Of a stretch of 39,595 nt of DNA, positions 1 to 39,566 are shown piece after piece. The DNA lies in sequence record PZ544513.1, one strand, 5' to 3'. The DNA comes from a phage. Position 1 is the stretch's first letter; every line of letters starts with the position of its first letter. The notes under the pieces were generated by a model, which did no database searches, was not told the DNA's origin, and saw only the letters and a program-made list of their open reading frames with translations. A program made the position numbers and the translations under genes.

Positions 1-1731
1 ATGACTGCACGTATGAAGTCAGACTTCGTGTTCTTCCTGTTCGTCCTGTGGAAAGCTCTGTCGCTCCCAGTCCCGACTCGCTGTCAGATTGACATGGCGA
101 AGAAACTATCGGCTGGGGACAACAGGCGCTTCATCCTACAGGCGTTCCGTGGTATAGGGAAGTCCTTCATTACGTGTGCCTTCGTTGTCTGGAAGCTATG
201 GAACAACCCAGACTTGAAGTTCATGATTGTGTCGGCCTCAAAGGAGCGAGCCGATGCTAACTCCATCTTCATCAAGCGAATCATCGACCTCATGCCTCAG
301 CTTCAGGAACTCAAACCTAAGCAGGGACAGCGAGATGCGGTTATTAGCTTCGACGTGGGACCTGCCAAGCCAGACCACTCACCTTCGGTTAAGTCCGTTG
401 GTATCACTGGTCAGTTGACTGGTAGTCGTGCTGACATCCTGATTGCCGATGACGTGGAGGTTCCGAACAACTCAGCGACTCAGGCTGCACGAGACCGTCT
501 ATCAGAGCTTGTGAAAGAGTTCGACGCTATCCTGAAGCCGGGAGGTACGATCATCTATCTGGGTACTCCTCAGAACGAGATGACCCTGTACCGTGAGCTG
601 GAAGGTCGTGGGTACACCACTACTATCTGGCCCGCTCGTTATCCACGCGACAGGAAGGACTGGCAGTCTTACGGCGACCGTCTGGCTCCTATGCTTCAGG
701 CAGAGCTGGAAGAGGACCCTGAGTCCTTCTACTGGCGTCCGACTGATGAAGTACGCTTCGATGATACGGACCTGAAGGAACGTGAGCTGTCCTACGGTAA
801 AGCTGGCTTCGCTCTACAGTTCATGCTTAACCCGAACCTGAGTGATGCCGAGAAGTACCCTCTTAAGCTCCGTGACCTTATCGTAGCCGACTTGGACCCA
901 GCGTCCAGCCCAATGGTCTACCAATGGTTGCCGAACCCTCAGAACAAGCGTGAGGACGTTCCTAACGTTGGACTCATGGGTGACTCGTACCACACGTATC
1001 AGACTGTAGGTTCTGCCTTCAGCTCATACACCCAGAAGATTCTGGTCATTGACCCTAGTGGTCGTGGTAAGGATGAAACTGGATATGCGGTACTGTACCA
1101 GCTCAACGGCTACATCTTCGCTATGGAAGTTGGTGGTATGCGTGGTGGTTATGAAGACTCTACGCTGGAAGCCTTGGCTAAGATTGGTCGTAAGTGGAGG
1201 GTAAACGAATACGTCATTGAGGGTAACTTCGGTGATGGTATGTACCTTGAGCTATTCAAGCCTGTATCGGCCCGTATCCATCCTGCGGCTGTAACTGAAG
1301 TGAAGAGTAAGGGTCAGAAAGAACTACGCATCTGTGACGTTCTGGAGCCTATCATGGGGTCTCACAGACTTATCGTTAACGCTGCTGCTATCGTCCAAGA
1401 CTACCAGACAGCCTCTGACAAGGATGGTGTTCGTAACCCTATCTACTCTCTATTCTATCAGATGACACGTATCTCTCGTGAGCGTGGAGCCTTGGCACAC
1501 GATGACCGACTTGATGCGCTGGCTATCGGTGTACAGTTCTTCGTTGAGTCGATGGCTAAGGATGCCAACAAAGGCGAACGTGAAGTCACTGAGGAATGGC
1601 TGGAGGAACAGATGGAGAACCCACGGAAAGGCTTCGAGTCCATCCACACTGAGTTCTGGGACAATGGGGTCCGGGTAACTCACGATACGGACGACGAGCT
1701 TGGACTAGGGTCATACGTTACGTTCCACTAG
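1..1731 (+). CDS. 19: Large terminase subunit (T7 gp19-like), 5-prime truncated by the window edge; the start lies at 39563..39595
   Basis: 576-aa ORF colinear with recalled T7 gp19 ([30 protein letters not shown] Walker A-like, [26 protein letters not shown]); reading frame is open to window position 1 and continuous with the ORF starting at 39563. Confidence 0.93.
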
Positions 1732-1825
1732 CTGAATGAATAACTATAGGTGAAAGCTGCATGAATAAGCAGTTAGTAACCTATAGTTACTACCAGTCTA
1801 ACATACTGTTTTACAAGGAGTTTGG

Positions 1826-1848
1826 ACTTAACTATCACTATAGGGAAG
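1826..1848 (+). promoter_or_regulatory. Phage RNAP promoter (phi-OR-like) cTTAACTATCACTATAGGGAAG, +1 near 1843
   Basis: Matches the 11-member promoter family of this genome and the T7 promoter core CACTATAGGGAGA; lies downstream of gene 19 near the right genome end, as phi-OR does in T7. Confidence 0.7.
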
Positions 1849-2028
1849 ACCCCCGGTTACTTATAGTATTACTGTAGTGAATATACATATGCAGACTTTA
1901 TGCAAGACCTTAGGAGGCAGACTCCGAGTTCTTACCTAAGGCTTGCACAGATGGAAGGAGGGTGATATTAATCATAATCCCTCCAATACAGATAGTCACC
2001 GACCATAGATACAGGAGGTATGTAGCAT

Positions 2029-2187
2029 ATGGCAAAGACCAAAGCTGTACTTAAAGCTCTGGCGACCAATCGAGCTACATACAGGTTTCTTGCTGCTGTT
2101 CTACTTGCTGCTGGCGTTACTGCTGGAAGTCAGTGGGTCGGGTGGGTCGAGACTCTCGTATGTTCTCTGGTGTCTGAGTGTCGTTAA
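2029..2187 (+). CDS. Small hydrophobic protein (52 aa), gene 19.5-like by position
   Basis: ATG at 2029 preceded by AGGAGG (2013-2018); 52 codons, stop TAA 2185-2187; hydrophobic core LAAVLLAAGVTAG; lies between gene 19 and the terminal repeat; not in the ORF track because under 60 aa. Confidence 0.4.
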   Translation: MAKTKAVLKALATNRATYRFLAAVLLAAGVTAGSQWVGWVETLVCSLVSECR

Positions 2188-2437
2188 CGCCGTAATGGTA
2201 ACAATCAACGAAAGTAAGACCTAAGGTCAGTTCATAGCTGACGCTACTCTACTGACCTTAGCTACTGTAGTCAAGGACTTTAGGTAACACCTTAAAAGAA
2301 GCTCACTTAGGGTCATCCTACTTATTGGTCTATCCTAGTGTCGCCTGACCTACGGTCCTTGACCTACAGTAGCTGGTTCCTAAGGAGGGACGATGAGTTT
2401 TTGACCAAAAGTTTGAGACCACATCTCACAGTTCAAG

Positions 2438-2586
2438 AACATCAAGTCTCCCCCATAGGCCTCTTTCAGTCCAGACCAAAGGCCCTACCCCAGTCTATCA
2501 TAAGGTTGGACCGATGGTCAAGACTTCAGGTCAACGATAGGTTGTGGCTATGGCTTAGGGAAGGACGATAGGTTGGGACTATGGGT
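2438..2586. repeat. Direct terminal repeat, copy 1 (right genome end), 149 bp
   Basis: 2438-2586 is identical to 2588-2736 by direct reading (period 150 bp, one spacer base at 2587); T7-like genomes carry direct terminal repeats of about 150-230 bp. Confidence 0.8.
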
Positions 2587-2587
2587 A

Positions 2588-2736
2588 AACATCAAGTCTC
2601 CCCCATAGGCCTCTTTCAGTCCAGACCAAAGGCCCTACCCCAGTCTATCATAAGGTTGGACCGATGGTCAAGACTTCAGGTCAACGATAGGTTGTGGCTA
2701 TGGCTTAGGGAAGGACGATAGGTTGGGACTATGGGT
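2588..2736. repeat. Direct terminal repeat, copy 2 (left genome end), 149 bp
   Basis: Exact tandem copy of 2438-2586; followed by short-repeat array and host-type promoters as at the T7 left end. Confidence 0.8.
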
Positions 2737-2959
2737 CTGTCTTTGAGTCTCTATCTGTATCAGACCTTGAGTCACTACCTACAGTCTAACTACCTACAGT
2801 CATCGACCATCGGTAATGCCGCTACCTACAGTCATCGACCTACGGTTAATAGACACAAGGATATAGACTTAAGGTCTAATACATGTTAGTCAAAGACTAT
2901 ATCCTCTTAGTCACTATGGGGCCGACGATAGCTTAATCAATATTATTTAAGATTACCTA

Positions 2960-2989
2960 TTGACTACAGGTCCAGACTATGGCTTAATA
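2960..2989 (+). promoter_or_regulatory. Putative host sigma70 early promoter (TTGACT, 17 nt spacer, CTTAAT), weak -10
   Basis: -35 TTGACT at 2960-2965 with an AT-rich upstream tract; located between the terminal repeat and the first early gene, like T7 A1-A3. Confidence 0.25.
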
Positions 2990-3100
2990 GCTTCCGTCAA
3001 CACGACACGGCAACAACCGGATAGTGAAGACGCCGGGTCATCCCGGTTAAGTAGACAGCCTGATAAGTCATACGAACAACAGGCAGATGACAGAAAGTAG

Positions 3101-3130
3101 TTGACAAGATGTACCGACTTAAAGTAGTAT
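3101..3130 (+). promoter_or_regulatory. Putative host sigma70 early promoter (TTGACA, 18 nt spacer, TAGTAT)
   Basis: TTGACA 3101-3106, TAGTAT 3125-3130 followed by GTACCACAT, reminiscent of T7 A2/A3 early promoters; correct position and orientation for early transcription. Confidence 0.45.
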
Positions 3131-3243
3131 GTACCACATCAACACGAAACAACGGTGACGACCAACACTGAAACGGTCTACCTGAAGTCCTCTGACTGAA
3201 GGGAATGCTCTTTAACAATCTGGATAAACTCTTAATGTGCGCC

Positions 3244-3310
3244 GACAGTGATTAACTACAGGGTCTTTGAGTCTACATCTGAAGGCCCTGACTGATAGTC
3301 ACTAGCAACC
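3244..3310 (+). other. Putative RNase III processing hairpin, early-region repeat copy A
   Basis: About 66-nt element CGACAGTGATTAACTACAGGGTC...GGCCCTGACTGATAGTCACTA with imperfect inverted symmetry (AGTGA/TCACT and CAGGG/CCCTG stems with internal loop); three copies, each immediately upstream of an early gene. Confidence 0.5.
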
Positions 3311-3324
3311 TAAGAGGATTCATT

Positions 3325-3603
3325 ATGAGACTGAACAAAGCTACAGCAGAAGCCTTTCGCAAGGAGCTTGAATCAAGATTATTGTGTGGAGTGGCGGAAG
3401 GAGCCGCTCGATATAAAGAGAATGGTCTAACGTTCAAGCGCTTTATGTGGGATTGCTATCACGGAGTGGGCCATAAAAAGTCGCAGGAAATAATCACCAG
3501 CAACAATGCGGAAGTGCAAGTGATAGGAGGATACATGGCTAACGTGAAGGATTCACACATAGAGACAATGCTTAAGAATGCACTTAAAGATGTAGCCTAC
3601 TAG
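3325..3603 (+). CDS. Hypothetical early protein (92 aa), first gene behind the host promoters
   Basis: ORF with RBS AAGAGGA 8 nt upstream of ATG; preceded by repeat copy A; no recognisable motif. Confidence 0.6.
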   Translation: MRLNKATAEAFRKELESRLLCGVAEGAARYKENGLTFKRFMWDCYHGVGHKKSQEIITSNNAEVQVIGGYMANVKDSHIETMLKNALKDVAY

Positions 3604-3658
3604 TGATTAACTACAGGTCGTTAGACTGATAGCGGCCTGACTGATAGTCACTAACACA
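3601..3658 (+). other. Putative RNase III processing hairpin, early-region repeat copy B (diverged)
   Basis: TAGTGATTAACTACAGG...CCTGACTGATAGTCACTAACA shares both flanks with copies A and C; immediately upstream of the ocr homolog. Confidence 0.45.
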
Positions 3659-3683
3659 TAATTAACTTTGAGAGGATATAACT

Positions 3684-4190
3684 ATGGAACGTAATGCTAA
3701 CGCATACTATGAGCTGCTGGCTGCAACCGTTGAGGCATTTATCGAGCGTATTCAGTACGACCACCTGACTCAAGATGATGACTACAGCGATGCGCTGCAT
3801 GAGGTCGTAGACGGTCAGGTTCCACACTATTACCACGAGATTTTTACGGTGATGGCTGCTGATGGTATAGACCACGAGTTCGAAGACTCTGGGCTGATGC
3901 CTGAAACCAAGGACGTAACGCGTATCCTACAAGCTCGCATCTATGAGGCGCTTTATAACGATGTGTCTAATAGCTTGGATGTAGTCTGGTTTGAGGATGA
4001 AGAGGCAGAAGAAGAGGATGAATATTGGGTAGTTGACGCTAAAACAGACGCAATAATTGTGCAAGCTGTAGCTCTTGAGGTCGCTACTGCATGTACCAAG
4101 GTTAACTATGCGGCAGGTCGCCACCTGAAGGTGGAAGACATCAATGATAACGTAGTGTTCGACCCTGCGGCTGAGGACTGCGAGCGATGA
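3684..4190 (+). CDS. ocr: Ocr-like DNA-mimic anti-restriction protein (T7 gp0.3 homolog) with a C-terminal extension of about 50 aa
   Basis: Core [43 protein letters not shown] is near-identical to recalled T7 Ocr ([43 protein letters not shown]); acidic; 168 aa versus 117 aa in T7. Confidence 0.88.
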
Positions 4191-4357
4191 TAACTTACGG
4201 TTTATGCCAGCACCACGTCACCAACGCCCGACTTATGGTCAAGACCGGGCGGTTAACCCATGATGAGACTATGCGTCTCCTGAAGGTGGTCTACAAGCGC
4301 CGCAAGCGCATACACGACAGTTTGCACGCTGAGGATAACCAACAATGCTCCAGATAA
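4187..4357 (+). CDS. Hypothetical small basic early protein (56 aa)
   Basis: ATG at 4187 overlaps the ocr stop (ATGA); 56 codons to TAA 4355-4357; under the ORF-track size cutoff. Confidence 0.25.
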
Positions 4358-4422
4358 CTTATAGCAGCGAACAAGCGTTCTACGACGGGTGCTACGAGAT
4401 GATGAAGCGCGATACTTGCTAG

Positions 4423-4488
4423 CGACAGTGATTAACTACAGGGTCTTTGAGTCTACATCTGAAGGCCCTGACTGATAGCCACTAACAA
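4423..4488 (+). other. Putative RNase III processing hairpin, early-region repeat copy C
   Basis: Identical to copy A except 2 positions over 66 nt; immediately upstream of the ORF at 4503. Confidence 0.5.
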
Positions 4489-4502
4489 CTGAGAGGACAG
4501 AT

Positions 4503-4730
4503 ATGAACACAATCACTGGTGCCATAGCCAAAGGTTTTCGAGCAATTTTCAGTGAATCGCAAGAAGTATGCACCAATCATAAATTCGTACTTTCTTGCGT
4601 AGTAGGGGACGAGTTTGACGGATTCGATAAACTGGTGGTTTGCGACCATTGTGGACAAGAGGCTATCCAACGCTCAAACGGTAAATTTGAATTAATAGAC
4701 GATAGCCTTACAGAAGGAGACGGCGAGTAA
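4503..4730 (+). CDS. Hypothetical early protein (75 aa), possible Cys-rich zinc-binding motif
   Basis: ORF with RBS GAGAGGA; contains C-x8-C ... CDHC cysteine pairs; no homolog recognised. Confidence 0.6.
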   Translation: MNTITGAIAKGFRAIFSESQEVCTNHKFVLSCVVGDEFDGFDKLVVCDHCGQEAIQRSNGKFELIDDSLTEGDGE

Positions 4731-4862
4731 CCTAGATAAACAGGAGAGAACCAAATCGTAGCTTGACCATAACGCTGACAGGTGGATACTGAGTGATAGA
4801 CGAGAGGCCGTCGAATGATAGGTGGCCTCAAAGATTATCACTTGAATTAATAGGAGTTAACT

Positions 4863-4952
4863 ATGAGTGTGGGATATTGGGTCTGCCTAGCGCCAGTTAT
4901 CTGGATGATAGGCTATGGGTTATACGACTGTATTAAACGGAAATCACTATGA
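4863..4952 (+). CDS. Hypothetical small membrane peptide (29 aa)
   Basis: ATG 4863 preceded by TAGGAG; hydrophobic WVCLAPVIWMIGYGLY; stop overlaps the next ATG (ATGA at 4949-4952). Confidence 0.3.
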   Translation: MSVGYWVCLAPVIWMIGYGLYDCIKRKSL

Positions 4953-5146
4953 GTATTGCACTATTGATAGCCATAGGCTATGGACTTATCGCATACGTGC
5001 TGGTGAGAGACATCAACAAGGCACGTAAAGTCTATAAATTCAACTATGTACGTATGGTCCGCTGGACTGTACGTCAACCTAACGGACGATTCCTGCGCAA
5101 TTTAGCGAACGTCTGGGATATAGCAACTCTTGGGAGCAAACTGTAA
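4949..5146 (+). CDS. Hypothetical early membrane protein (65 aa)
   Basis: N-terminal hydrophobic segment IALLIAIGYGLIAYVLV followed by basic tail; translationally coupled to neighbours. Confidence 0.55.
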   Translation: MSIALLIAIGYGLIAYVLVRDINKARKVYKFNYVRMVRWTVRQPNGRFLRNLANVWDIATLGSKL

Positions 5147-5472
5147 TGAACAAGTCATACGGGATTAATCTGGTACACTCTATGGACGCAGAAATGAACA
5201 TGTTAAGCCTACTGGCTACCGGGTATCGTCACGGAACGTCAAGTCACACCGCACGTCAACAGCAGGAGAGGGACCGTGTACTACAGGCGCGACTCCGGGC
5301 AGAGGGCCATAAGTCCGAACTGATGTGTCTGGCGTATGGCGGACGACCGATCACTGACGATGGTAAACTTCTGGTATCAGGCTGGAAGGCGATAGACCAA
5401 CGGTCAACCATCAAGCACACGACTCACGGTGACTTCAGCCATCTCCACGCTAACCCACTGATATGCAAGTGA
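5146..5472 (+). CDS. Hypothetical early protein (108 aa); sits where T7 has gene 0.7 but has no kinase motifs
   Basis: ORF starts at TAATG overlap with the previous gene; no recognisable domain. Confidence 0.55.
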   Translation: MNKSYGINLVHSMDAEMNMLSLLATGYRHGTSSHTARQQQERDRVLQARLRAEGHKSELMCLAYGGRPITDDGKLLVSGWKAIDQRSTIKHTTHGDFSHLHANPLICK

Positions 5473-5477
5473 TTATG

Positions 5478-5500
5478 ACTTAACTATCACTATAGGACTC
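5478..5500 (+). promoter_or_regulatory. Phage RNAP promoter-like sequence upstream of the RNA polymerase gene (ACTTAACTATCACTATAGGACTC)
   Basis: Full match to the promoter family core except GGAC instead of GGGA at +1..+4; about 70 bp upstream of gene 1. Confidence 0.5.
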
Positions 5501-5569
5501 AAGGTCTAAGACTCCAAGTGAAAGACCAAAGAGACTTTAAGTGAAAGACTAATAACAAGGACTTTAAGT

Positions 5570-8251
5570 ATGAGCGTCATCTCTATTGACAAACACGACT
5601 TCTCTGATGTGTCGAACGCCATTGAGCCGTTTAACCTGCTGGCTGACCACTACGGGCAAGACCTTGCAGTCAAACAGCTTCAGCTTGAGCATGAGGCCTA
5701 CACTGAAGGTGAGCGACGTTTCATCAAGAACCTTGAGCGTCAGACCGAGCGAGGGGAACTGGCAGACAATCAGGTCGCCAAGCCTTTGATGCAGACTCTG
5801 GTTCCTAAGATTGCGCAAGCCGTCAAGGAGTGGCACGAAGGTCCAGACGGGAAGCTGTCAACCTCACGTCCGAGCGTAGCGTTCACCATGTTAAGCACTG
5901 AAGAGAAGGCCGTCAAGGACCGCTCTCTTCGCATCTCCTGCGAGTCTGCTGCGGTTATCATACTGAAGGTCATCCTCTCCAAGCTGGTCAAGCCTGAAGG
6001 TATACCGATTACACCGATGGCCTCCGCGATAGGTCGCACACTTGAGGATGAAATCCGATTCGGTCGCATTCGTGACAAGGAGAAGGAGCACTTCAAGAAG
6101 GCGATAGCTGATAACCTGAACAAGAGAGCCGGGGCATCATACAAGAAAGCCTACATGCAAGCGGTCGAGACATCCATGCTGGAGCAAGGCCAACTAGAAG
6201 ATGCGTGGGGAACTTGGAGTCCGACCGAGGCTGTCCACGTTGGAATCAAGATGCTGGAGATTGTCATACAGTCAACACAACTGGTCGAGCTTAAGCGTTA
6301 CGGTGCTGGCAATGCAGCGGCTGACGTTGAGATGGTCCACCTGTCAGACTTCTGGGTCAAGAAGATGGCACAACGAGGATTCAGCCTTGCGGGTATCGCC
6401 CCAGTCTACCAGCCTTGCGTCGTTCCGCCTAAGCCGTGGACTGGTGTCGTAGGCGGTGGGTATTGGGCCAAAGGTCGAAGACCATTGCCACTGATTCGCT
6501 TAGGGTCTAAGTCTGCGGTAGCACGTTATGAAGACGTATACATGCCTGAAGTCTATGAAGCTGTGAATATCATCCAGAATACACCTTGGAAAGTGAACAA
6601 GAAGGTATTGGACGTGGTGAACAGGGTCGAGAAGCTGAACAACACGCCTATTAATGACATCCCTCAGATGGAACCGCTGAAGCCTGAGGACTATGCTGGT
6701 GAAACCGAGGAGGAACTCAAGGCATGGAAGAAGGCTGCTGCTGGTATCTATCGCCGCGAGAAGGCCAGACAGTCACGCAGATTATCACTGAGCTTTATCG
6801 TTAACCAAGCAAACAAGTTCTCTCAGTTCAAGGCCATCTGGTTCCCGTACAACATGGATTGGCGAGGTCGTGTCTACGCTGTCCCGATGTTCAACCCTCA
6901 GGGTAACGACATGCAGAAGGGGCTCCTGACTCTGGCAGTCGGCAAGCCTATTGGTGCTGACGGTTTCAAATGGCTGAAGGTCCACGGTGCAAACTGTGCG
7001 GGTGTCGATAAAGTCACCTTCGATGAGCGCATCAAGTGGGTGGAAGACAACCACGAAAACATCATGGCTGCTGCTAAGGCACCGATGGATAGCATTGAGT
7101 GGTGGGGCAAGTTAGACTCTCCGTTCTGCTTCCTAGCGTTCTGCTTCGAGTATGCTGGCGTAATGCACCACGGCTTGTCTTACTCCTGCTCGCTGCCGAT
7201 AGCGTTCGATGGGTCCTGCTCTGGGATTCAGCACTTCAGCGCTATGCTTCGCGACCACATCGGTGGACATGCAGTAAACCTGACGCCATCCGGTAAGGTC
7301 CAAGACATCTACCGCATCGTGTCTGACCGCATTGAGGAGGAGCTTAAAGTCCTACTGGTTAACGGTACGGACAACGAGATGGTAACTCACGAGGACAAGA
7401 AAACTGGTGAGATTACCGAGCGTCTCAAGCTGGGGACACGAGAGCTTGCCCGTCAGTGGCTGACCTACGGTATGTCACGAAAGGTCACTAAGCGTTCGGT
7501 CATGACTCTGGCCTACGGGTCGAAAGAGTACGGCTTCGCAGACCAAGTTTACGAGGACATCGTGATGCCAGCGATTGACTCAGGGTCTGGCGCTATGTTC
7601 ACTGAACCAAGCCAAGCATCTCGCTTCATGGCTAAGATGATTTGGGAAGCTGTGAGTGTGACCGTAGTTGCTGCGGTTGACGCGATGAAATGGCTTCAGG
7701 GTGCTGCCAAGCTGCTTGCTGCTGAAGTGAAGGACAAGAAGACTGGAGAAATCCTGAAGCCTTGTCTTCCGGTACACTGGGTCACACCTGATGGTTTCCC
7801 TGTCTGGCAGGAATACCGAAAGAAGGACACCACTCGTCTGAACCTGATGTTCTTAGGGTCATTCAACCTTCAGCCTACCGTCAACAAAGGCACGAAGAAA
7901 GAGCTGGACAAGCACAAGCAGGAGTCAGGCATTAGCCCGAACTTCGTCCACTCACAAGATGGTAGCCACCTCCGCAAGACTGTAGTCCACACGCACCGCA
8001 AATATGGCGTGATGTCATTCGCAGTGATTCACGATAGCTTCGGGACCATCCCGGCTGACGCTGAGTATCTGTTCCGTGGAGTCCGTGAGACGATGGTCGA
8101 GACCTACCGCGACAACGATGTGCTGCTTGACTTCTACGAGCAGTTTGAATACCAGCTTCACGAGAGCCAGAGAGACAAGTTGCCTGAGCTTCCTAAGAAA
8201 GGTAAACTGAATATCGAAGACATCTTGTCTTCAGACTTTGCATTCGCTTAA
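5570..8251 (+). CDS. 1: Single-subunit DNA-directed RNA polymerase (T7 gp1 family)
   Basis: 893 aa; colinear with T7/T3 RNAP throughout (PMFQPCVVPPKPWTG, FPYNMDWRGRVYAVPMFNPQGNDM, AFCFEYAGV.HHGLSY, DGSCSGIQHFSAMLRD, NFVHSQDGSHLRKTVV, IHDSFGTIPADA, C-terminal DFAFA). Confidence 0.98.
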   Translation: MSVISIDKHDFSDVSNAIEPFNLLADHYGQDLAVKQLQLEHEAYTEGERRFIKNLERQTERGELADNQVAKPLMQTLVPKIAQAVKEWHEGPDGKLSTSRPSVAFTMLSTEEKAVKDRSLRISCESAAVIILKVILSKLVKPEGIPITPMASAIGRTLEDEIRFGRIRDKEKEHFKKAIADNLNKRAGASYKKAYMQAVETSMLEQGQLEDAWGTWSPTEAVHVGIKMLEIVIQSTQLVELKRYGAGNAAADVEMVHLSDFWVKKMAQRGFSLAGIAPVYQPCVVPPKPWTGVVGGGYWAKGRRPLPLIRLGSKSAVARYEDVYMPEVYEAVNIIQNTPWKVNKKVLDVVNRVEKLNNTPINDIPQMEPLKPEDYAGETEEELKAWKKAAAGIYRREKARQSRRLSLSFIVNQANKFSQFKAIWFPYNMDWRGRVYAVPMFNPQGNDMQKGLLTLAVGKPIGADGFKWLKVHGANCAGVDKVTFDERIKWVEDNHENIMAAAKAPMDSIEWWGKLDSPFCFLAFCFEYAGVMHHGLSYSCSLPIAFDGSCSGIQHFSAMLRDHIGGHAVNLTPSGKVQDIYRIVSDRIEEELKVLLVNGTDNEMVTHEDKKTGEITERLKLGTRELARQWLTYGMSRKVTKRSVMTLAYGSKEYGFADQVYEDIVMPAIDSGSGAMFTEPSQASRFMAKMIWEAVSVTVVAAVDAMKWLQGAAKLLAAEVKDKKTGEILKPCLPVHWVTPDGFPVWQEYRKKDTTRLNLMFLGSFNLQPTVNKGTKKELDKHKQESGISPNFVHSQDGSHLRKTVVHTHRKYGVMSFAVIHDSFGTIPADAEYLFRGVRETMVETYRDNDVLLDFYEQFEYQLHESQRDKLPELPKKGKLNIEDILSSDFAFA

Positions 8252-8798: not shown

Positions 8799-8821
8799 CC
8801 TAAACTATCACTATAGGCTTA
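8799..8821 (+). promoter_or_regulatory. Phage RNAP promoter (phi1.1-like) CTAAACTATCACTATAGGCTT
   Basis: Member of the conserved promoter family; +1 near 8816. Confidence 0.7.
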
Positions 8822-8860
8822 GACTCAAGGTCATGACTCAAAGTCGTGGCCTTCATGATT
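8821..8860 (+). other. Conserved leader hairpin AGACTCAAGGTCA-loop-TGGCCTT (putative RNase III site, R1.1-like position)
   Basis: 7-bp stem AAGGTCA/TGGCCTT (one G-U pair) with conserved flanks; one of 3 copies at 8821, 16046 and 39024. Confidence 0.45.
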
Positions 8861-8894
8861 AACCCTAAATAAACACTACTGGAGATTTAACCGT

Positions 8895-9074
8895 ATGTAT
8901 CAGAACACTATCAACTTCGAGCGCATCCGTGAACGTCAGCAGACTGAAGGTTACATCCCTAAGGGCCGCAAGCTGAACAAGACTAAACGTGGCGGTGGTA
9001 TCAAAGGCGCTTTCAGAAACGCTGAAGGTAAAGACTCTCTGGTCAACCAAGAGAAATACTTCGTAGGAGCATAA
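8895..9074 (+). CDS. 1.1: gp1.1-like small basic protein (59 aa)
   Basis: ATG 8895 with RBS GGAGA; contains KGRKLNKTKR matching recalled T7 gp1.1; under the ORF-track size cutoff. Confidence 0.55.
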   Translation: MYQNTINFERIRERQQTEGYIPKGRKLNKTKRGGGIKGAFRNAEGKDSLVNQEKYFVGA

Positions 9075-14163: not shown

Positions 14164-16043
<1,880 letters not shown>

Positions 16044-16045
16044 GT

Positions 16046-16090
16046 CTAGACTCAAGGTCATTCATAGCGAGTGGCCTTTATGATTAGACT
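16046..16090 (+). other. Conserved leader hairpin AGACTCAAGGTCA-loop-TGGCCTT (putative RNase III site, R4.7-like position)
   Basis: Second copy of the hairpin family; immediately upstream of the DNA polymerase gene. Confidence 0.45.
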
Positions 16091-16107
16091 AAAGCGGAGG
16101 ATTAACC

Positions 16108-18279
16108 ATGTTTGACCTTAAGAGTATCTGGGGTTCTGACATCGAGACCAACGGTCTCCTTGATACAGTCTCCCAGTTTCACTGTGGGGTCCTGATTAAC
16201 GCCGAGTCGAATGAGACCCTTAAGTATGGGGTAGCTCCGATGGTCGGTATCGTCGGCGGCTTCAAAGAGTATGTTCATAAAGTGGAAGAGATTGCCGCAT
16301 CACCTGATGGTATGCTGGTATTCCATAACGGTATCAACTATGACGTCCCGGCTATAGACAAGCTGAAGCGTTTGTACTTTGGGAAACGCTTTAACTTCCC
16401 GAAACATAAGATGATTGATACCTTGGTGCTGGGACGCTTGATGTATCCAAACATTAAGTTCTCAGACATGGGCGCGGTGAAAGCTGGTCGTCTGCCACCT
16501 AAGATGATGGGACGCCAGTCTCTTGAGGCTTGGGGCTATCGTCTCGGTGAGATGAAAGGTGAGTACAAACACGATTACGTTGCCAAGTGCAAGGCTGAAG
16601 GTATCGAATATAAGGCTGGGGACGAATGGTTGTTCCCGTCTCAGGAGATGCTGGACTATAACGTTCAAGACGTTGTGGTCACACTGGCGTTGTTCAAGAA
16701 GTTCCTGACTGACAAGTATTACTTCCAGTCTGAACAGTTCGCTTTCGACCAGATTTATGCGTTGCGTCTGGAACATGATGCTGCGTGGACCTGTGCGAAG
16801 ATGGAGCGTAATGGCTATCCGATGAACACCGAGATGGTCGAAGGCTTATATCGTGAACTCACTGTCAAACGAGCAGAGTTGCTGGACAAGCTGCGTTCGA
16901 CTTTCGGTAGCTGGTACGCACCAAAGGGAGGCAAGGAGTTCTTCAGGCATCCACGGACAGGTAAGGACCTTCCGAAGTATCCGAGGGTCGTGTATCCTAA
17001 GGTCGGTGGCATCTTTAAGAAGCCGAAGAACAAAGCTCAACGCTTAGGTCTTGAACCTTGTGAACGCGATACGCGAGACACGATGGAAGGAGCACCATTC
17101 ACGCCAATCACTTACGTTGAGTTTAATCCGGGAAGCGGAGACCACTTAGCGAAAGTCCTGATGGAGCGTGGCTGGGAGCCTGTTGACTTCACTGACACCG
17201 GGAAACCTGTAGTCGATGACGAGACGTTGGAACACGTTAAGTTACCAGACGCAGAGGCTCAGGCTTGCGTAGAGCTGGTCCGTGAGTATCTGGTAGTCCA
17301 GAAGCGCATCGGTCAGGCGGCTGAAGGTAAGAACGCATGGTTGAAACTTGTAGGTCCAGACGGACGTATGCACGGCTCAATAAACCCATGCGGGGCAGTA
17401 ACCGGACGTGCGACCCATAGTTCACCAAACATGGCTCAGGTCCCGGCTAACGGTGCTCCATATGGTGAGACTTGCCGTGGTGCTTTCGGTGCAGCGTGGA
17501 ACAAGAAGGACGGTAAGCCAGACCCTTGGATTCAAGTTGGTGTGGATGCCTCAGGTCTTGAGCTTCGTTGTCTTGGGAACAGAGCGGCTCCGTTTGATGG
17601 TGGTGCATATGCGAAGACTGTGGTAGAAGGTGACATCCACTGGGCCAACGCAGTAAACGCTGGGTTAGCACCTAACGTCCAACGCGATAAGTCTAACCAC
17701 GACCATGAGGCTTTCCGTAACAACGCTAAGACGTTCATCTACGCGTTCCTGTATGGTGCAGGGGCCGCTAAGATTGGACTGATAGTAGGCGGTGGTAAGA
17801 AGGAAGGTTCAGCGCTCATGAAGAAATTCATTGAGGGTACACCAGCTATCAAGGACCTCAGGGAAGCTGTAAGTAATACGTTAATCTCAGACTCTAAGTG
17901 GGTGGACGGAGAGAACATCGTTAAATGGAAACGCCGTTGGTTGCGTGGACTCGATGGTCGCCGTATACACATACGGTCTCCACACTCAGCACTGAACGCA
18001 TTACTTCAAGGTGATGGTGCGGTAGTATGTAAGCACTGGATTGTTGAGACTGAACGTATGCTCGAAGAGGCCGGGTATGTCCACGGCTGGGAAGGAGACT
18101 TTGCGTACATGGCATGGGTCCACGACGAATTGCAGATTGCAGCTCGGAACATGGAGATTGCCGAAGATATTCGCAGGATTGCTCAACTTGCTATGCGTAA
18201 GGTGGGTGAGTTCTATAACTTTAAATGTGTCCTTGATACTGAAGGTAAGCTTGGACCAACTTGGAAGGAGTGTCACTAA
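16108..18279 (+). CDS. 5: DNA polymerase (T7 gp5 homolog, family A)
   Basis: 723 aa; N-terminal 3-prime to 5-prime exonuclease motif (DIETNGL), polymerase motifs (KTFIYAFLYGAG, VHDEL), colinear with T7 gp5. Confidence 0.97.
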   Translation: MFDLKSIWGSDIETNGLLDTVSQFHCGVLINAESNETLKYGVAPMVGIVGGFKEYVHKVEEIAASPDGMLVFHNGINYDVPAIDKLKRLYFGKRFNFPKHKMIDTLVLGRLMYPNIKFSDMGAVKAGRLPPKMMGRQSLEAWGYRLGEMKGEYKHDYVAKCKAEGIEYKAGDEWLFPSQEMLDYNVQDVVVTLALFKKFLTDKYYFQSEQFAFDQIYALRLEHDAAWTCAKMERNGYPMNTEMVEGLYRELTVKRAELLDKLRSTFGSWYAPKGGKEFFRHPRTGKDLPKYPRVVYPKVGGIFKKPKNKAQRLGLEPCERDTRDTMEGAPFTPITYVEFNPGSGDHLAKVLMERGWEPVDFTDTGKPVVDDETLEHVKLPDAEAQACVELVREYLVVQKRIGQAAEGKNAWLKLVGPDGRMHGSINPCGAVTGRATHSSPNMAQVPANGAPYGETCRGAFGAAWNKKDGKPDPWIQVGVDASGLELRCLGNRAAPFDGGAYAKTVVEGDIHWANAVNAGLAPNVQRDKSNHDHEAFRNNAKTFIYAFLYGAGAAKIGLIVGGGKKEGSALMKKFIEGTPAIKDLREAVSNTLISDSKWVDGENIVKWKRRWLRGLDGRRIHIRSPHSALNALLQGDGAVVCKHWIVETERMLEEAGYVHGWEGDFAYMAWVHDELQIAARNMEIAEDIRRIAQLAMRKVGEFYNFKCVLDTEGKLGPTWKECH

Positions 18280-38565: not shown

Positions 38566-38760
38566 ATGATTGAGTTAGACTTCAAGAATGAGGTCCTTAA
38601 AGCCTCTCCTATCGTCGGGACCGCTGCGGCTGATGGTGCCAGTCGGTTCTTCTTCGGACTTACACTGAACGAATGGTTCTACGTTGCAGCTATCGCGTAC
38701 ACCGTTGTCCAGATTGGTGTGCTAGTCTACAAAACGATTAAAGGAGGTGGTAAAACATGA
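38566..38760 (+). CDS. 17.5: Type II holin (T7 gp17.5 homolog)
   Basis: ASPIVGTAAADGASRFFFGLTLNEWFYVAAIAYTVVQIG is near-identical to recalled T7 gp17.5; RBS CTGGAGG. Confidence 0.93.
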   Translation: MIELDFKNEVLKASPIVGTAAADGASRFFFGLTLNEWFYVAAIAYTVVQIGVLVYKTIKGGGKT

Positions 38761-39020
38761 CGCAGATGGACTTAGAGAAGTTCCTCTTGATGCTTGATAC
38801 TGAACGTGCTAGACTCATGCTGCAAGACCTGCGGGATGACTCTAAGCGTTCACCTCAGCTTTACAACGCCATTGAGAAGCTACTGGCTCGTCACAACTTC
38901 GTGCTAAGTAAGGTGTCTGTGGACGAGAAGACGCTGGCTGATATGGAGGCCCTGAACGCAGAGTACGATAAGGTGCTTTCAGCGACTGAGGATAATGACA
39001 CCGGGTATGGCGTTCAATAA
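38757..39020 (+). CDS. 18: Small terminase subunit (T7 gp18 homolog)
   Basis: 87 aa; LLMLDTERARLMLQDLRDDSKRSPQLYNAIEKLLARHNF aligns with recalled T7 gp18 (FLEMLDTAMAQRMLADLSDHERRSPQLYNAIDKLLDRHKF). Confidence 0.93.
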   Translation: MTQMDLEKFLLMLDTERARLMLQDLRDDSKRSPQLYNAIEKLLARHNFVLSKVSVDEKTLADMEALNAEYDKVLSATEDNDTGYGVQ

Positions 39021-39023
39021 GTG

Positions 39024-39066
39024 TTAGACTCAAGGTCATCGTCAGGTGGCCTTTATGGTTAACACT
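39024..39066 (+). other. Conserved leader hairpin AGACTCAAGGTCA-loop-TGGCCTT (putative RNase III site, R18.5-like position)
   Basis: Third copy of the hairpin family, between gene 18 and the spanin gene. Confidence 0.45.
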
Positions 39067-39116
39067 AACTAGTGGAGGAGGCTCTACGTGAAATCTGATA
39101 AACCGGGAGGGCAACT

Positions 39117-39566
39117 ATGCTCGAATTTTTAAAGAGAGCGGCTCCGTGGGTACTTGCAGCAGTGATGTTTGCTGGTGGCTACCACACCGCTAACAATAAG
39201 TGGGAGGCTAAGGTCAATGAAGAATACACCTCGAATCTTAAGGCATCGGAAGATACAAGGCTTGCTGTCCAAGCTGAAGTCAACAAAGTGTCCAAACGGT
39301 TTCAGGACGAAATGTCCTCGCTGGAAGGCAGCACTGATAGGATTATTGCTGACCTTCAGTCTGACAATAAGCGGTTGCGCATCCGAGTCAAACCAACGAG
39401 TGGAACCACGCAAAGTGACGGTCGATGCTTCATTGATGGTTACGCCGAACTTGACGAACGAGATGCTAAACGTCTTATCGCCATCGGAGTGAAAGGAGAC
39501 AAGTGGATTAAGGCCCTTCAAGACACTGTGAGAGCCTTACAGCAAGAGAAGGAGGTGACGCATTGA
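39117..39566 (+). CDS. 18.5: i-spanin Rz (T7 gp18.5 homolog)
   Basis: 149 aa; N-terminal transmembrane segment AAPWVLAAVMFAGGY followed by charged coiled-coil-like periplasmic domain; RBS GGGAGGG. Confidence 0.88.
   Translation: MLEFLKRAAPWVLAAVMFAGGYHTANNKWEAKVNEEYTSNLKASEDTRLAVQAEVNKVSKRFQDEMSSLEGSTDRIIADLQSDNKRLRIRVKPTSGTTQSDGRCFIDGYAELDERDAKRLIAIGVKGDKWIKALQDTVRALQQEKEVTH
39214..39492 (+). CDS. Putative o-spanin Rz1 (gp18.7-like) embedded in the +1 frame of Rz; start codon uncertain
   Basis: Embedded frame encodes ...RWKAALIGLLLTFSLTISGC with a lipobox (ISGC) and Cys at about 39376; no canonical start immediately upstream of the signal peptide, so the N-terminus is unresolved. Confidence 0.3.
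   Translation, partial: SMKNTPRILRHRKIQGLLSKLKSTKCPNGFRTKCPRWKAALIGLLLTFSLTISGCASESNQRVEPRKVTVDASLMVTPNLTNEMLNVLSPSE

What the first reader, a model, noticed from the sequence alone, without database searches (positions are those of the whole stretch)
3244..4488. Three copies of a 66-nt early-region repeat consistent with RNase III processing sites
The nearly identical elements at 3244-3310 and 4423-4488 (2 mismatches) and a diverged copy at 3601-3658 each lie immediately upstream of an early gene. Each folds into an imperfect hairpin with an internal loop (AGTGA..CAGGG / CCCTG..TCACT), the architecture of T7 early RNase III sites that cut the polycistronic early transcript. A further long imperfect hairpin at about 4791-4840 may be a fourth site.
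Basis: partly seen in the sequence, partly recalled or inferred. Interest (0 to 1): 0.45.

Follow-up and report, generated by a model that had tools for sequence, protein, structure and literature searches.

The report
T7-type RNase III sites, K1F-like phage
The repeated 60-70-nt hairpins between the early genes of this K1F-like coliphage are very probably the same kind of host RNase III cutting signals long known in phage T7. This is an ordinary, expected feature, although comparison with sister phages shows the repeats also act as break-and-join points where small early genes are gained or lost.

Summary
3243-3309 and 4423-4489 are 65/67 identical. 3596-3658 shares both arms with them, and 4786-4848 is a fourth hairpin of the same design.

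The window is a complete, rotated Kayfunavirus (K1F-like, T7 family) genome. I built a covariance model from seven T7 RNase III sites only. It finds exactly seven sense-strand matches in the window at E<=0.004: the four flagged elements plus 8809-8872, 16036-16097 and 39014-39072. The next hit has E=0.19. In T7 itself the model gives no false hit below E 0.1.

In 80 related phage loci all 224 hits lie on the transcribed strand. Across 85 Kayfunavirus sites, 94% of cells pair (21-45% in shifted controls) and 13 of 19 pairs show compensatory changes. Each element lies 26-60 nt upstream of a start codon preceded by a purine-rich, Shine-Dalgarno-like stretch. The four early ones follow a sigma-70 promoter with no terminator between.

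Predicted single cuts fall after 3293, 3642, 4473 and 4832. Cleavage itself is untested.

The near-identity of the copies reflects recent recombination. Sister phages differ by 317- and 349-nt cassette indels bounded exactly by these hairpins.

Verdict: unannotated members of a textbook class, of low interest.

The parts
3101..3130 (+). Sigma-70-type early promoter (TTGACA-18-TAGTAT) that would drive the polycistronic early transcript carrying the sites
   Evidence: 10/12 match to consensus. No terminator-like site on the + strand between here and 5700.
3241..3309 (+). Early RNase III-type hairpin, copy 1 (long upper stem). Predicted single cut between 3293 and 3294. Lies upstream of the 92-aa ORF 3325-3603.
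   Evidence: D4; -23.7 kcal/mol, z -2.9; 26.9 bits, E 0.001 with the T7-only model.
3596..3658 (+). Early RNase III-type hairpin, copy 2. It overlaps the stop codon of ORF 3325-3603. Predicted cut between 3642 and 3643. Lies upstream of the ocr-like gene 3684-4190.
   Evidence: -24.5 kcal/mol, z -5.2; 45.0 bits, E 4e-8, all 19 pairs formed.
4421..4489 (+). Early RNase III-type hairpin, copy 3 (65/67 identical to copy 1, with an A.C mismatch in the lower stem from C4479). Predicted cut between 4473 and 4474. Lies upstream of the 75-aa ORF 4503-4730.
   Evidence: D4; -18.3 kcal/mol, z -1.5; 24.6 bits, E 0.004; in LM33_P1 the same gene is preceded by a different variant of the site.
4786..4848 (+). 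Fourth early RNase III-type hairpin. Closest T7 site is R0.5 (both share GAGUGAUAGAC...GAUUAUCACUU). Predicted cut between 4832 and 4833. Lies upstream of ORF 4863-4952.
   Evidence: -22.9 kcal/mol, z -3.6; 37.4 bits, E 3e-6; 46 identical positions with T7 R0.5.
8809..8872 (+). RNase III-type hairpin starting at the +1 of a phage promoter (CACTATAGG). Counterpart of T7 R1.1/R1.3. Predicted cut after 8856. Lies upstream of ORF 8895-9074.
   Evidence: 45.4 bits; (z -4.7).
16036..16097 (+). RNase III-type hairpin between the 566-aa ORF 14167-15867 and the 723-aa ORF 16108-18279 (T7 gene 4 and gene 5 counterparts by size and gene order, not tested). Counterpart of T7 R4.7. Predicted cut after 16081.
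   Evidence: 48.3 bits.
39014..39072 (+). RNase III-type hairpin between the 87-aa ORF 38757-39020 and the 149-aa ORF 39117-39566 (T7 gene 18 and 18.5 counterparts by position, not tested). Counterpart of T7 R18.5. Predicted cut after 39056.
   Evidence: 58.8 bits, best hit.
3325..3603 (+). 92-aa early ORF ('gene B'), a cassette bounded by copies 1 and 2. Absent from sister phage 101120B1-2.
4503..4730 (+). 75-aa Cys-rich early ORF bounded by copy 3 and the fourth site.

Best explanation
The repeats are T7-type RNase III processing signals in the early mRNA of a K1F-like (Kayfunavirus) phage.

Proposed mechanism:
- Host RNA polymerase starts at the promoter at 3101-3130 and transcribes the early genes as one precursor.
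- Each intergenic element folds into a lower stem of 8-9 bp, an asymmetric 4-nt/5-nt internal loop, and an upper stem of 10 bp or more.
- Host RNase III makes one cut on the 3' side of the internal loop, 3 nt past the upper stem. The predicted cuts are 3293|3294, 3642|3643, 4473|4474 and 4832|4833.
- The upstream message keeps a protective 3' hairpin. The downstream message gets a short 5' leader of 29-41 nt ahead of its ribosome-binding site.

Three further sites (8809-8872, 16036-16097, 39014-39072) would do the same in phage-polymerase transcripts.

What is shown: the repeat, the fold, similarity to T7 sites in sequence and structure, sense-strand restriction, covariation, and intergenic placement inside a predicted transcript. 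What is inferred: cleavage by RNase III, the exact cut positions, and the effects on stability and translation.

The near-identity of the copies is explained by recent homologous recombination between sites. These same sites bound cassette indels among sister phages.
For: 1. Model test. A covariance model was built only from seven T7 sites. With filters off it finds seven + strand hits in the 39.6-kb window at E 2e-11 to 4e-3, including all four flagged elements. The next hit is at E 0.19.

2. Control in T7. The model recovers its seven training sites plus the held-out R6.5 (E 1e-5). Nothing else scores below E 0.1.

3. T7 reference sites. The ten recalled T7 cut coordinates all fall on hairpins. 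In the seven canonical sites used for the model the cut lies 3 nt 3' of the upper stem. R3.8, R6.5 and R13 fold differently.

4. Strand bias. In 80 RNAP-anchored relatives, 224 of 224 hits at E<=0.01 lie on the gene strand.

5. Covariation, model-fitted alignment. Over 85 Kayfunavirus hits, 94.3% of cells pair against 21-45% when partners are slid. 13 of 19 pairs change on both sides. The covariation score is 0.595 against 0.22 in shuffles, with 0 of 500 shuffles reaching it.

6. Covariation, unguided alignment. RNAalifold on a plain MAFFT alignment of 22 sites predicts the same two helices and the 4/5 loop. 12 of 19 pairs are compensatory.

7. RNA-level signal. The stems use G-U pairs, and the minus strand folds no better than shuffles.

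8. Placement. A sigma-70 promoter lies upstream and there is no terminator to 5700. Predicted cuts lie 26-60 nt before start codons preceded by purine-rich, Shine-Dalgarno-like stretches. By my arithmetic on the recalled cut coordinates and the T7 gene starts, T7 R0.3, R0.5, R1 and R1.3 lie about 27-35 nt before theirs.

9. Conserved core. Orthologues of site 1 in other phages carry a 23-nt Y-shaped apical insertion on an unchanged basal module, so the conserved part is the base.

10. Background literature. [quoted passage not shown] A single cut that leaves a 3' hairpin stabilises the mRNA (PMC6993053).
Against: - No experimental data exist for this phage or genus. I found no record or paper that annotates these sites.
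- Copies 1 and 3 score only 25-27 bits because of their long upper stem.
- Copy 3 has an A.C mismatch in the lower stem, and its fold is not clearly better than shuffles (z -1.5).
- Rfam holds no family for such sites, so there is no curated threshold.
- The T7 training coordinates come from my memory of Dunn and Studier 1983. The T7 record as held does not list RNase III sites, so the coordinates were checked only by their folds.
- The early region has no ORF of the size of the T7 gene 0.7 kinase that stimulates RNase III. Processing efficiency may therefore differ from T7.
Confidence: 0.88

Rival explanations
1. The hairpins are RNA structures that act without RNase III. They could be passive 3'-exonuclease barriers, insulators between cistrons, or binding sites for a phage or host protein or for another nuclease.
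For: The structure is clearly conserved, but nothing here measures cleavage. Stable intergenic hairpins can stabilise mRNA on their own.
Against: The conserved features go beyond a generic hairpin. The 4/5 asymmetric internal loop, its sequence (ACUN / NNUGA) and the first upper-stem pairs match those of mapped T7 sites. The T7-only model separates these elements cleanly from everything else in the genome.
Confidence: 0.06
2. The repeats matter mainly as DNA. They would be homology boxes or scars of cassette recombination, or palindromes sensed by or decoying host systems such as Lamassu/DdmABC, with no RNA role.
For: Sister genomes differ by indels bounded exactly by the repeats. T7 RNase III-site palindromes trigger DdmABC at the DNA level in either orientation (PMC11707656).
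Against: All 224 hits are on the sense strand. The stems use G-U pairs that become A.C on the other strand, and the minus strand folds no better than shuffles. Compensatory changes preserve pairing. Recombination and defence sensing are better seen as side effects of an RNA element.
Confidence: 0.04
3. They are transcription terminators or attenuators of the early operon.
For: They are G+C-containing hairpins between genes.
Against: No U-tract follows any copy. The terminator scan finds none on the + strand between 3130 and 5700. The RNA polymerase gene downstream (5570-8251) must be reached by host polymerase.
Confidence: 0.01

Closest known systems
Bacteriophage T7 early RNase III sites R0.3, R0.5 and R1 (Dunn and Studier; Teseptimavirus)
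   Same: - Same two-helix design with a 4x5 internal loop, on the transcribed strand.
- Sits about 30-40 nt before the next start codon.
- 40-46 of about 61 positions are identical.
- The fourth site shares GAGUGAUAGAC...GAUUAUCACUU with R0.5.
- Copies 1-3 share the CAGG/CCUG base of the upper stem with R1.
   Different: - There are four early sites, in front of different, mostly non-homologous small genes.
- There is no site in front of gene 1, where this phage has a phage-polymerase promoter instead (5479-5496).
- Copies 1 and 3 have a longer, bulged upper stem.
- There is no gene 0.7-size kinase ORF to stimulate RNase III.
- Cleavage has never been mapped.
T7 middle and late sites R1.1/R1.3, R4.7 and R18.5
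   Same: Window sites 8809-8872, 16036-16097 and 39014-39072 occupy the corresponding places in the gene order and score 45-59 bits.
   Different: No counterparts of T7 R3.8, R6.5 or R13 were detected. The model also misses R3.8 and R13 in T7 itself.
RNase III-like palindromes of T7-like vibriophage VIB04 (PMC11707656)
   Same: Homologous hairpins dispersed through a T7-like genome.
   Different: Those were studied as DNA triggers of DdmABC/Lamassu. Nothing here tests such a role.

Membership tests
T7-type RNase III processing signal | Hairpin of about 20 bp interrupted by an asymmetric internal loop, with the cleaved bond on the 3' side of the loop | tested here: met
   a lower stem of 8-9 bp, a 4-nt/5-nt loop and an upper stem of 10 bp or more in all four elements. 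The cleaved bond itself is only predicted.
T7-type RNase III processing signal | Similarity in sequence and structure to experimentally mapped sites | tested here: met
   A model built from seven T7 sites only gives 45.0, 37.4, 26.9 and 24.6 bits (E 4e-8 to 4e-3). The next hit in the genome is at E 0.19. Specificity control in T7 is.
T7-type RNase III processing signal | Located on the transcribed strand, between cistrons of a polycistronic transcript | tested here: met
   In relatives, 224 of 224 hits are on the gene strand.
T7-type RNase III processing signal | Base pairing maintained in evolution (covariation) | tested here: met
   (94.3% paired, 13 of 19 pairs with double changes, slid controls 21-45%). 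(unguided alignment, 12 of 19 pairs).
T7-type RNase III processing signal | No antideterminant base pairs in the proximal and distal boxes of the upper stem | not tested
   I did not have the published rules at hand. The only relevant observation is that the first four upper-stem pairs of copies 1-3 (CAGG/CCUG) equal those of T7 R1.
T7-type RNase III processing signal | RNase III-dependent cleavage in vivo or in vitro | not testable with these tools
   Needs end mapping in rnc+ versus rnc- hosts, or an enzyme assay.
Intrinsic (rho-independent) terminator | G+C-rich hairpin followed by a U-tract | tested here: not met
   no terminator-like site at or between the elements. The sequences after the hairpins are ACTAGCAACC, ACTAACACAT, ACTAACAACT and CTTGAATTAA.

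The most novel reading that the evidence does not exclude
The hairpins may have a second role as portable homology boxes at which small early (largely anti-defence) genes are gained, lost and swapped among Kayfunaviruses. Each early gene would then travel as a unit of processing site, ribosome-binding site and ORF.

The evidence here is two independent indels (317 and 349 nt) among phages that are 99% identical, each bounded exactly by these sites. In addition, the site in front of the 75-aa gene has been replaced by a copy of site 1. As palindromic DNA the elements could also be seen by Lamassu-type defences.
Probability: 0.4. Interest if true: 0.4.

Novelty: new member of a known kind. Interest (0 to 1): 0.2.

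Why it matters
The main value is for annotation. K1F-like phages are used as therapeutic and engineering chassis against K1 and ExPEC E. coli, yet the records I inspected (K1F, LM33_P1, PM137, 101120B1-2) list no RNA processing sites.

Knowing the seven sites and their predicted cut positions defines the mature mRNAs. It also marks safe and unsafe places for genome engineering.

The cassette indels bounded by the sites give a concrete local mechanism for the mosaic early regions of these phages. None of this changes what is known about RNase III or T7-family gene expression.

Tried and rejected
- Rfam scan of 1-8000 at E<=5 found nothing, and no family exists for these sites.
- The K1F genome paper (the PMC id I recalled for it) is not held. 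Searches for RNase III with K1F, Kayfunavirus or Autographiviridae returned nothing that describes such sites in this genus.
- The T7 record as held lists promoters and terminators but not RNase III sites. I therefore used cut coordinates recalled from Dunn and Studier 1983 and checked that each falls on a hairpin; in the seven canonical sites used for the model the cut lies at the same place, 3 nt past the upper stem.
- Minus-strand folding of copies 1 and 3 is no better than shuffles, so I rejected a strand-neutral DNA palindrome as the primary reading.
- The terminator reading is rejected.
- A promoter-like reading was considered because ATTAACTACAGG faintly resembles the phage promoter CTTAACTATCACTATAGG (D7). 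I dropped it because the similarity is short and the hairpin model explains the whole element.
- A mobile-element (MITE-like) reading was not pursued. The copies sit at the same intergenic positions across the genus and in T7. The copy-number differences are explained by crossovers inside shared arms.

Full report
**What the window is.** The early region matches Kayfunavirus (K1F-like, Autographiviridae/Studiervirinae) phages. The best hit is Escherichia phage vB_EcoP-22664UKE3-2 at 99%. The window looks like a whole genome that has been rotated:
- the 576-aa ORF 1-1731, which I read as the T7 gene 19 (terminase) counterpart by position and size (not tested)
- the terminal-repeat region near 2424-2736
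- a sigma-70-type promoter at 3101-3130
- small early genes at 3325-5472
- a phage promoter at 5479-5496
- the RNA polymerase gene at 5570-8251.

**The observation.** The repeat finder confirms 3243-3309 and 4423-4489 as a 67-nt pair with 65 identical positions. The differences are T3299/C4479 and G3305/A4485 (D4). A third element shares the 5' arm AGTGATTAACTACAGG and the 3' arm CCTGACTGATAGTCACTA around a different upper stem (3596-3658, D7 and D8).

All copies, and the hairpin at 4786-4848, fold as a lower stem, a 4-nt/5-nt internal loop and an upper stem:

| Element | Energy (kcal/mol) | z versus shuffles |
|---|---|---|
| copy 1 | -23.7 | -2.9 |
| copy 2 | -24.5 | -5.2 |
| fourth hairpin | -22.9 | -3.6 |
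| copy 3 | -18.3 | -1.5 |

Copy 3 is weaker because C4479 creates an A.C mismatch in the lower stem. The reverse strands of copies 1 and 3 fold no better than shuffles.

**Comparison with T7.**
- The T7 record as held does not list RNase III sites. I used the cut coordinates I recall from Dunn and Studier 1983: 890, 1468, 3138, 5887, 6448, 11203, 13892, 18563, 27281 and 36856.
- Each lies on a hairpin. In the seven canonical sites the cut falls 3 nt 3' of the upper stem. This supports the recalled numbers.
- The T7 hairpins have the same architecture as the window elements, and the sequences are visibly related. T7 R0.5 (GAGUGAUAGAC...GAUUAUCACUU) resembles the fourth site. T7 R1 (ACAGGUC...GGCCUGA) resembles copies 1-3. 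Between 40 and 46 of about 61 positions are identical.

**Model test.**
- I aligned seven canonical T7 sites and built a covariance model from them alone.
- Run without filters over both strands of the window, it gives seven hits at E<=0.004, all on the + strand: 39014-39072 (58.8 bits), 16036-16097 (48.3), 8809-8872 (45.4), 3596-3658 (45.0), 4786-4848 (37.4), 3241-3309 (26.9) and 4421-4489 (24.6). The next hit has E 0.19.
- In T7 the model returns its seven training sites, the held-out R6.5 (E 1e-5), and nothing else below E 0.1. It misses the atypical R3.8 and R13.
Three further sites appear at positions that correspond, by gene order, to T7 R1.1/R1.3, R4.7 and R18.5.

**Comparative evidence for an RNA structure.**
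- Eighty loci anchored on the RNA polymerase gene, at 58-99% protein identity, give 224 hits at E<=0.01. All are on the gene strand.
- Among 85 hits in Kayfunavirus loci, 94.3% of cells form standard pairs, against 21-45% when partners are slid by 1-3 columns. 13 of 19 pairs show changes on both sides. The covariation score is 0.595 against 0.22 in shuffles, and 0 of 500 shuffles reach it.
- That alignment is fitted to the model, so I also ran RNAalifold on an unguided MAFFT alignment of 22 distinct sites. It predicts the same two helices and the same 4/5 loop, with 12 of 19 pairs compensatory.
- In several relatives the orthologue of site 1 carries a roughly 23-nt insertion that forms a Y-shaped tip on an unchanged basal module. 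The conserved part is therefore the base of the hairpin.

**Placement and predicted mechanism.**
- The four early sites lie downstream of a 10/12 sigma-70 promoter, with no terminator-like site up to 5700.
- By analogy with T7, each would be cut once, 3 nt past the upper stem: after 3293, 3642, 4473 and 4832, and after 8856, 16081 and 39056 for the other three. These cuts lie 26-60 nt before start codons preceded by purine-rich, Shine-Dalgarno-like stretches.
- In T7 the early precursor is cut by host RNase III at five sites, and R1.1 is cut at a single phosphodiester (PMC4858673). A single cut leaves a stabilising 3' hairpin on the upstream mRNA (PMC6993053).
- I infer the same mechanism here. 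Cleavage, cut positions and effects on expression were not tested.

**Why the copies are nearly identical.** Three sister phages at about 99% identity differ only by cassettes bounded by these sites:

| Phage | Order of elements |
|---|---|
| PM137 | site 1 - gene A (84 aa) - site 2a - gene B (92 aa) - site 2b - ocr |
| this window | site 1 - gene B - site 2 - ocr |
| 101120B1-2 | site 1 - gene A - site 2 - ocr |

- The 317-nt difference between the window and PM137 equals the spacing of the shared 3' arms in PM137 (positions 688 and 1005). In the window the junction has site 1 sequence on its left and the site 2a flank on its right.
- The 349-nt difference in 101120B1-2 equals the spacing of sites 2a and 2b.
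- In LM33_P1 the 75-aa gene is preceded by a different variant of the site. In the window lineage that variant has been replaced by a copy of site 1, next to a remnant of another early gene.
- The repeats are therefore substrates of homologous recombination. This explains their near-identity better than unusually strong constraint does.

**Rivals.**
- A terminator role is excluded by the lack of U-tracts.
- A purely DNA-level role does not fit the strict strand bias, the G-U pairs or the covariation. T7-type RNase III palindromes can, however, trigger DdmABC/Lamassu as DNA (PMC11707656), so a side effect of that kind is possible.
- A structured RNA that acts without RNase III cannot be excluded by computation. 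It is unparsimonious given the specific match to mapped T7 sites.

**Novelty.** RNase III sites are a textbook feature of T7 and its close relatives. The K1F, LM33_P1, PM137 and 101120B1-2 records list none, and I found no paper describing them for this genus. The original K1F paper could not be read. I therefore file the finding as new, unannotated members of a known kind, with low interest. The cassette indels at the sites are a modest addition.

Noticed in passing
window 2438-2586 and 2588-2736 (region from about 2424): A perfect 149-nt tandem duplication. The left genome end of K1F aligns from about window 2424. The window therefore seems to be a whole rotated genome with the terminal-repeat region present twice in tandem, either a concatemer junction or an assembly artefact.
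   Followed up: partly
window 5479-5496 (also 1827-1846): A phage-polymerase promoter (CTTAACTATCACTATAGG) sits directly upstream of the RNA polymerase gene itself, where T7 has RNase III site R1. No R1-type hairpin was found upstream of gene 1 in the window or in other Kayfunavirus loci. Two 21-nt direct repeats (5509-5529 and 5532-5552) lie between this promoter and the gene.
   Followed up: partly
window 1741-1789: A strong hairpin just after ORF 1-1731 (the presumed gene 19 counterpart) (-23.9 kcal/mol, z -5.1). The RNase III model does not match it, and its function is unknown.
   Followed up: no
window 4503-4730: This 75-aa Cys-rich early ORF is also found at 88-93% amino-acid identity in roughly 45-kb phages whose names mark them as siphoviruses (VB_EcoS-Golestan, vB_EcoS-*), with K1ind1 at 74%. 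This suggests recent gene transfer between unrelated phages that infect similar E. coli.
   Followed up: partly
L024 711-802; L014, L015, L019, L021, L022, L043 (site 1 orthologues): Site 1 carries a roughly 23-nt apical insertion that folds into a Y-shaped tip on the same lower stem, internal loop and upper-stem base.
   Followed up: partly
window 3325-5472: The early region has no ORF of the size of the T7 gene 0.7 protein kinase (largest early ORF 168 aa). The kinase stimulation of RNase III known for T7 would therefore be absent (PMC4858673).
   Followed up: no
window 4345-4422: This 25-aa ORF is the remnant 3' end of an early gene that other Kayfunavirus records (such as Vec13) annotate as part of a hypothetical protein. 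It is a scar of the rearrangement that placed copy 3 here.
   Followed up: partly
window 3684-4190: The ocr-like gene encodes 168 aa, with a C-terminal extension beyond the Glu/Asp-rich tail. T7 gene 0.3 spans 925-1278 (117 aa) in the T7 record.
   Followed up: no
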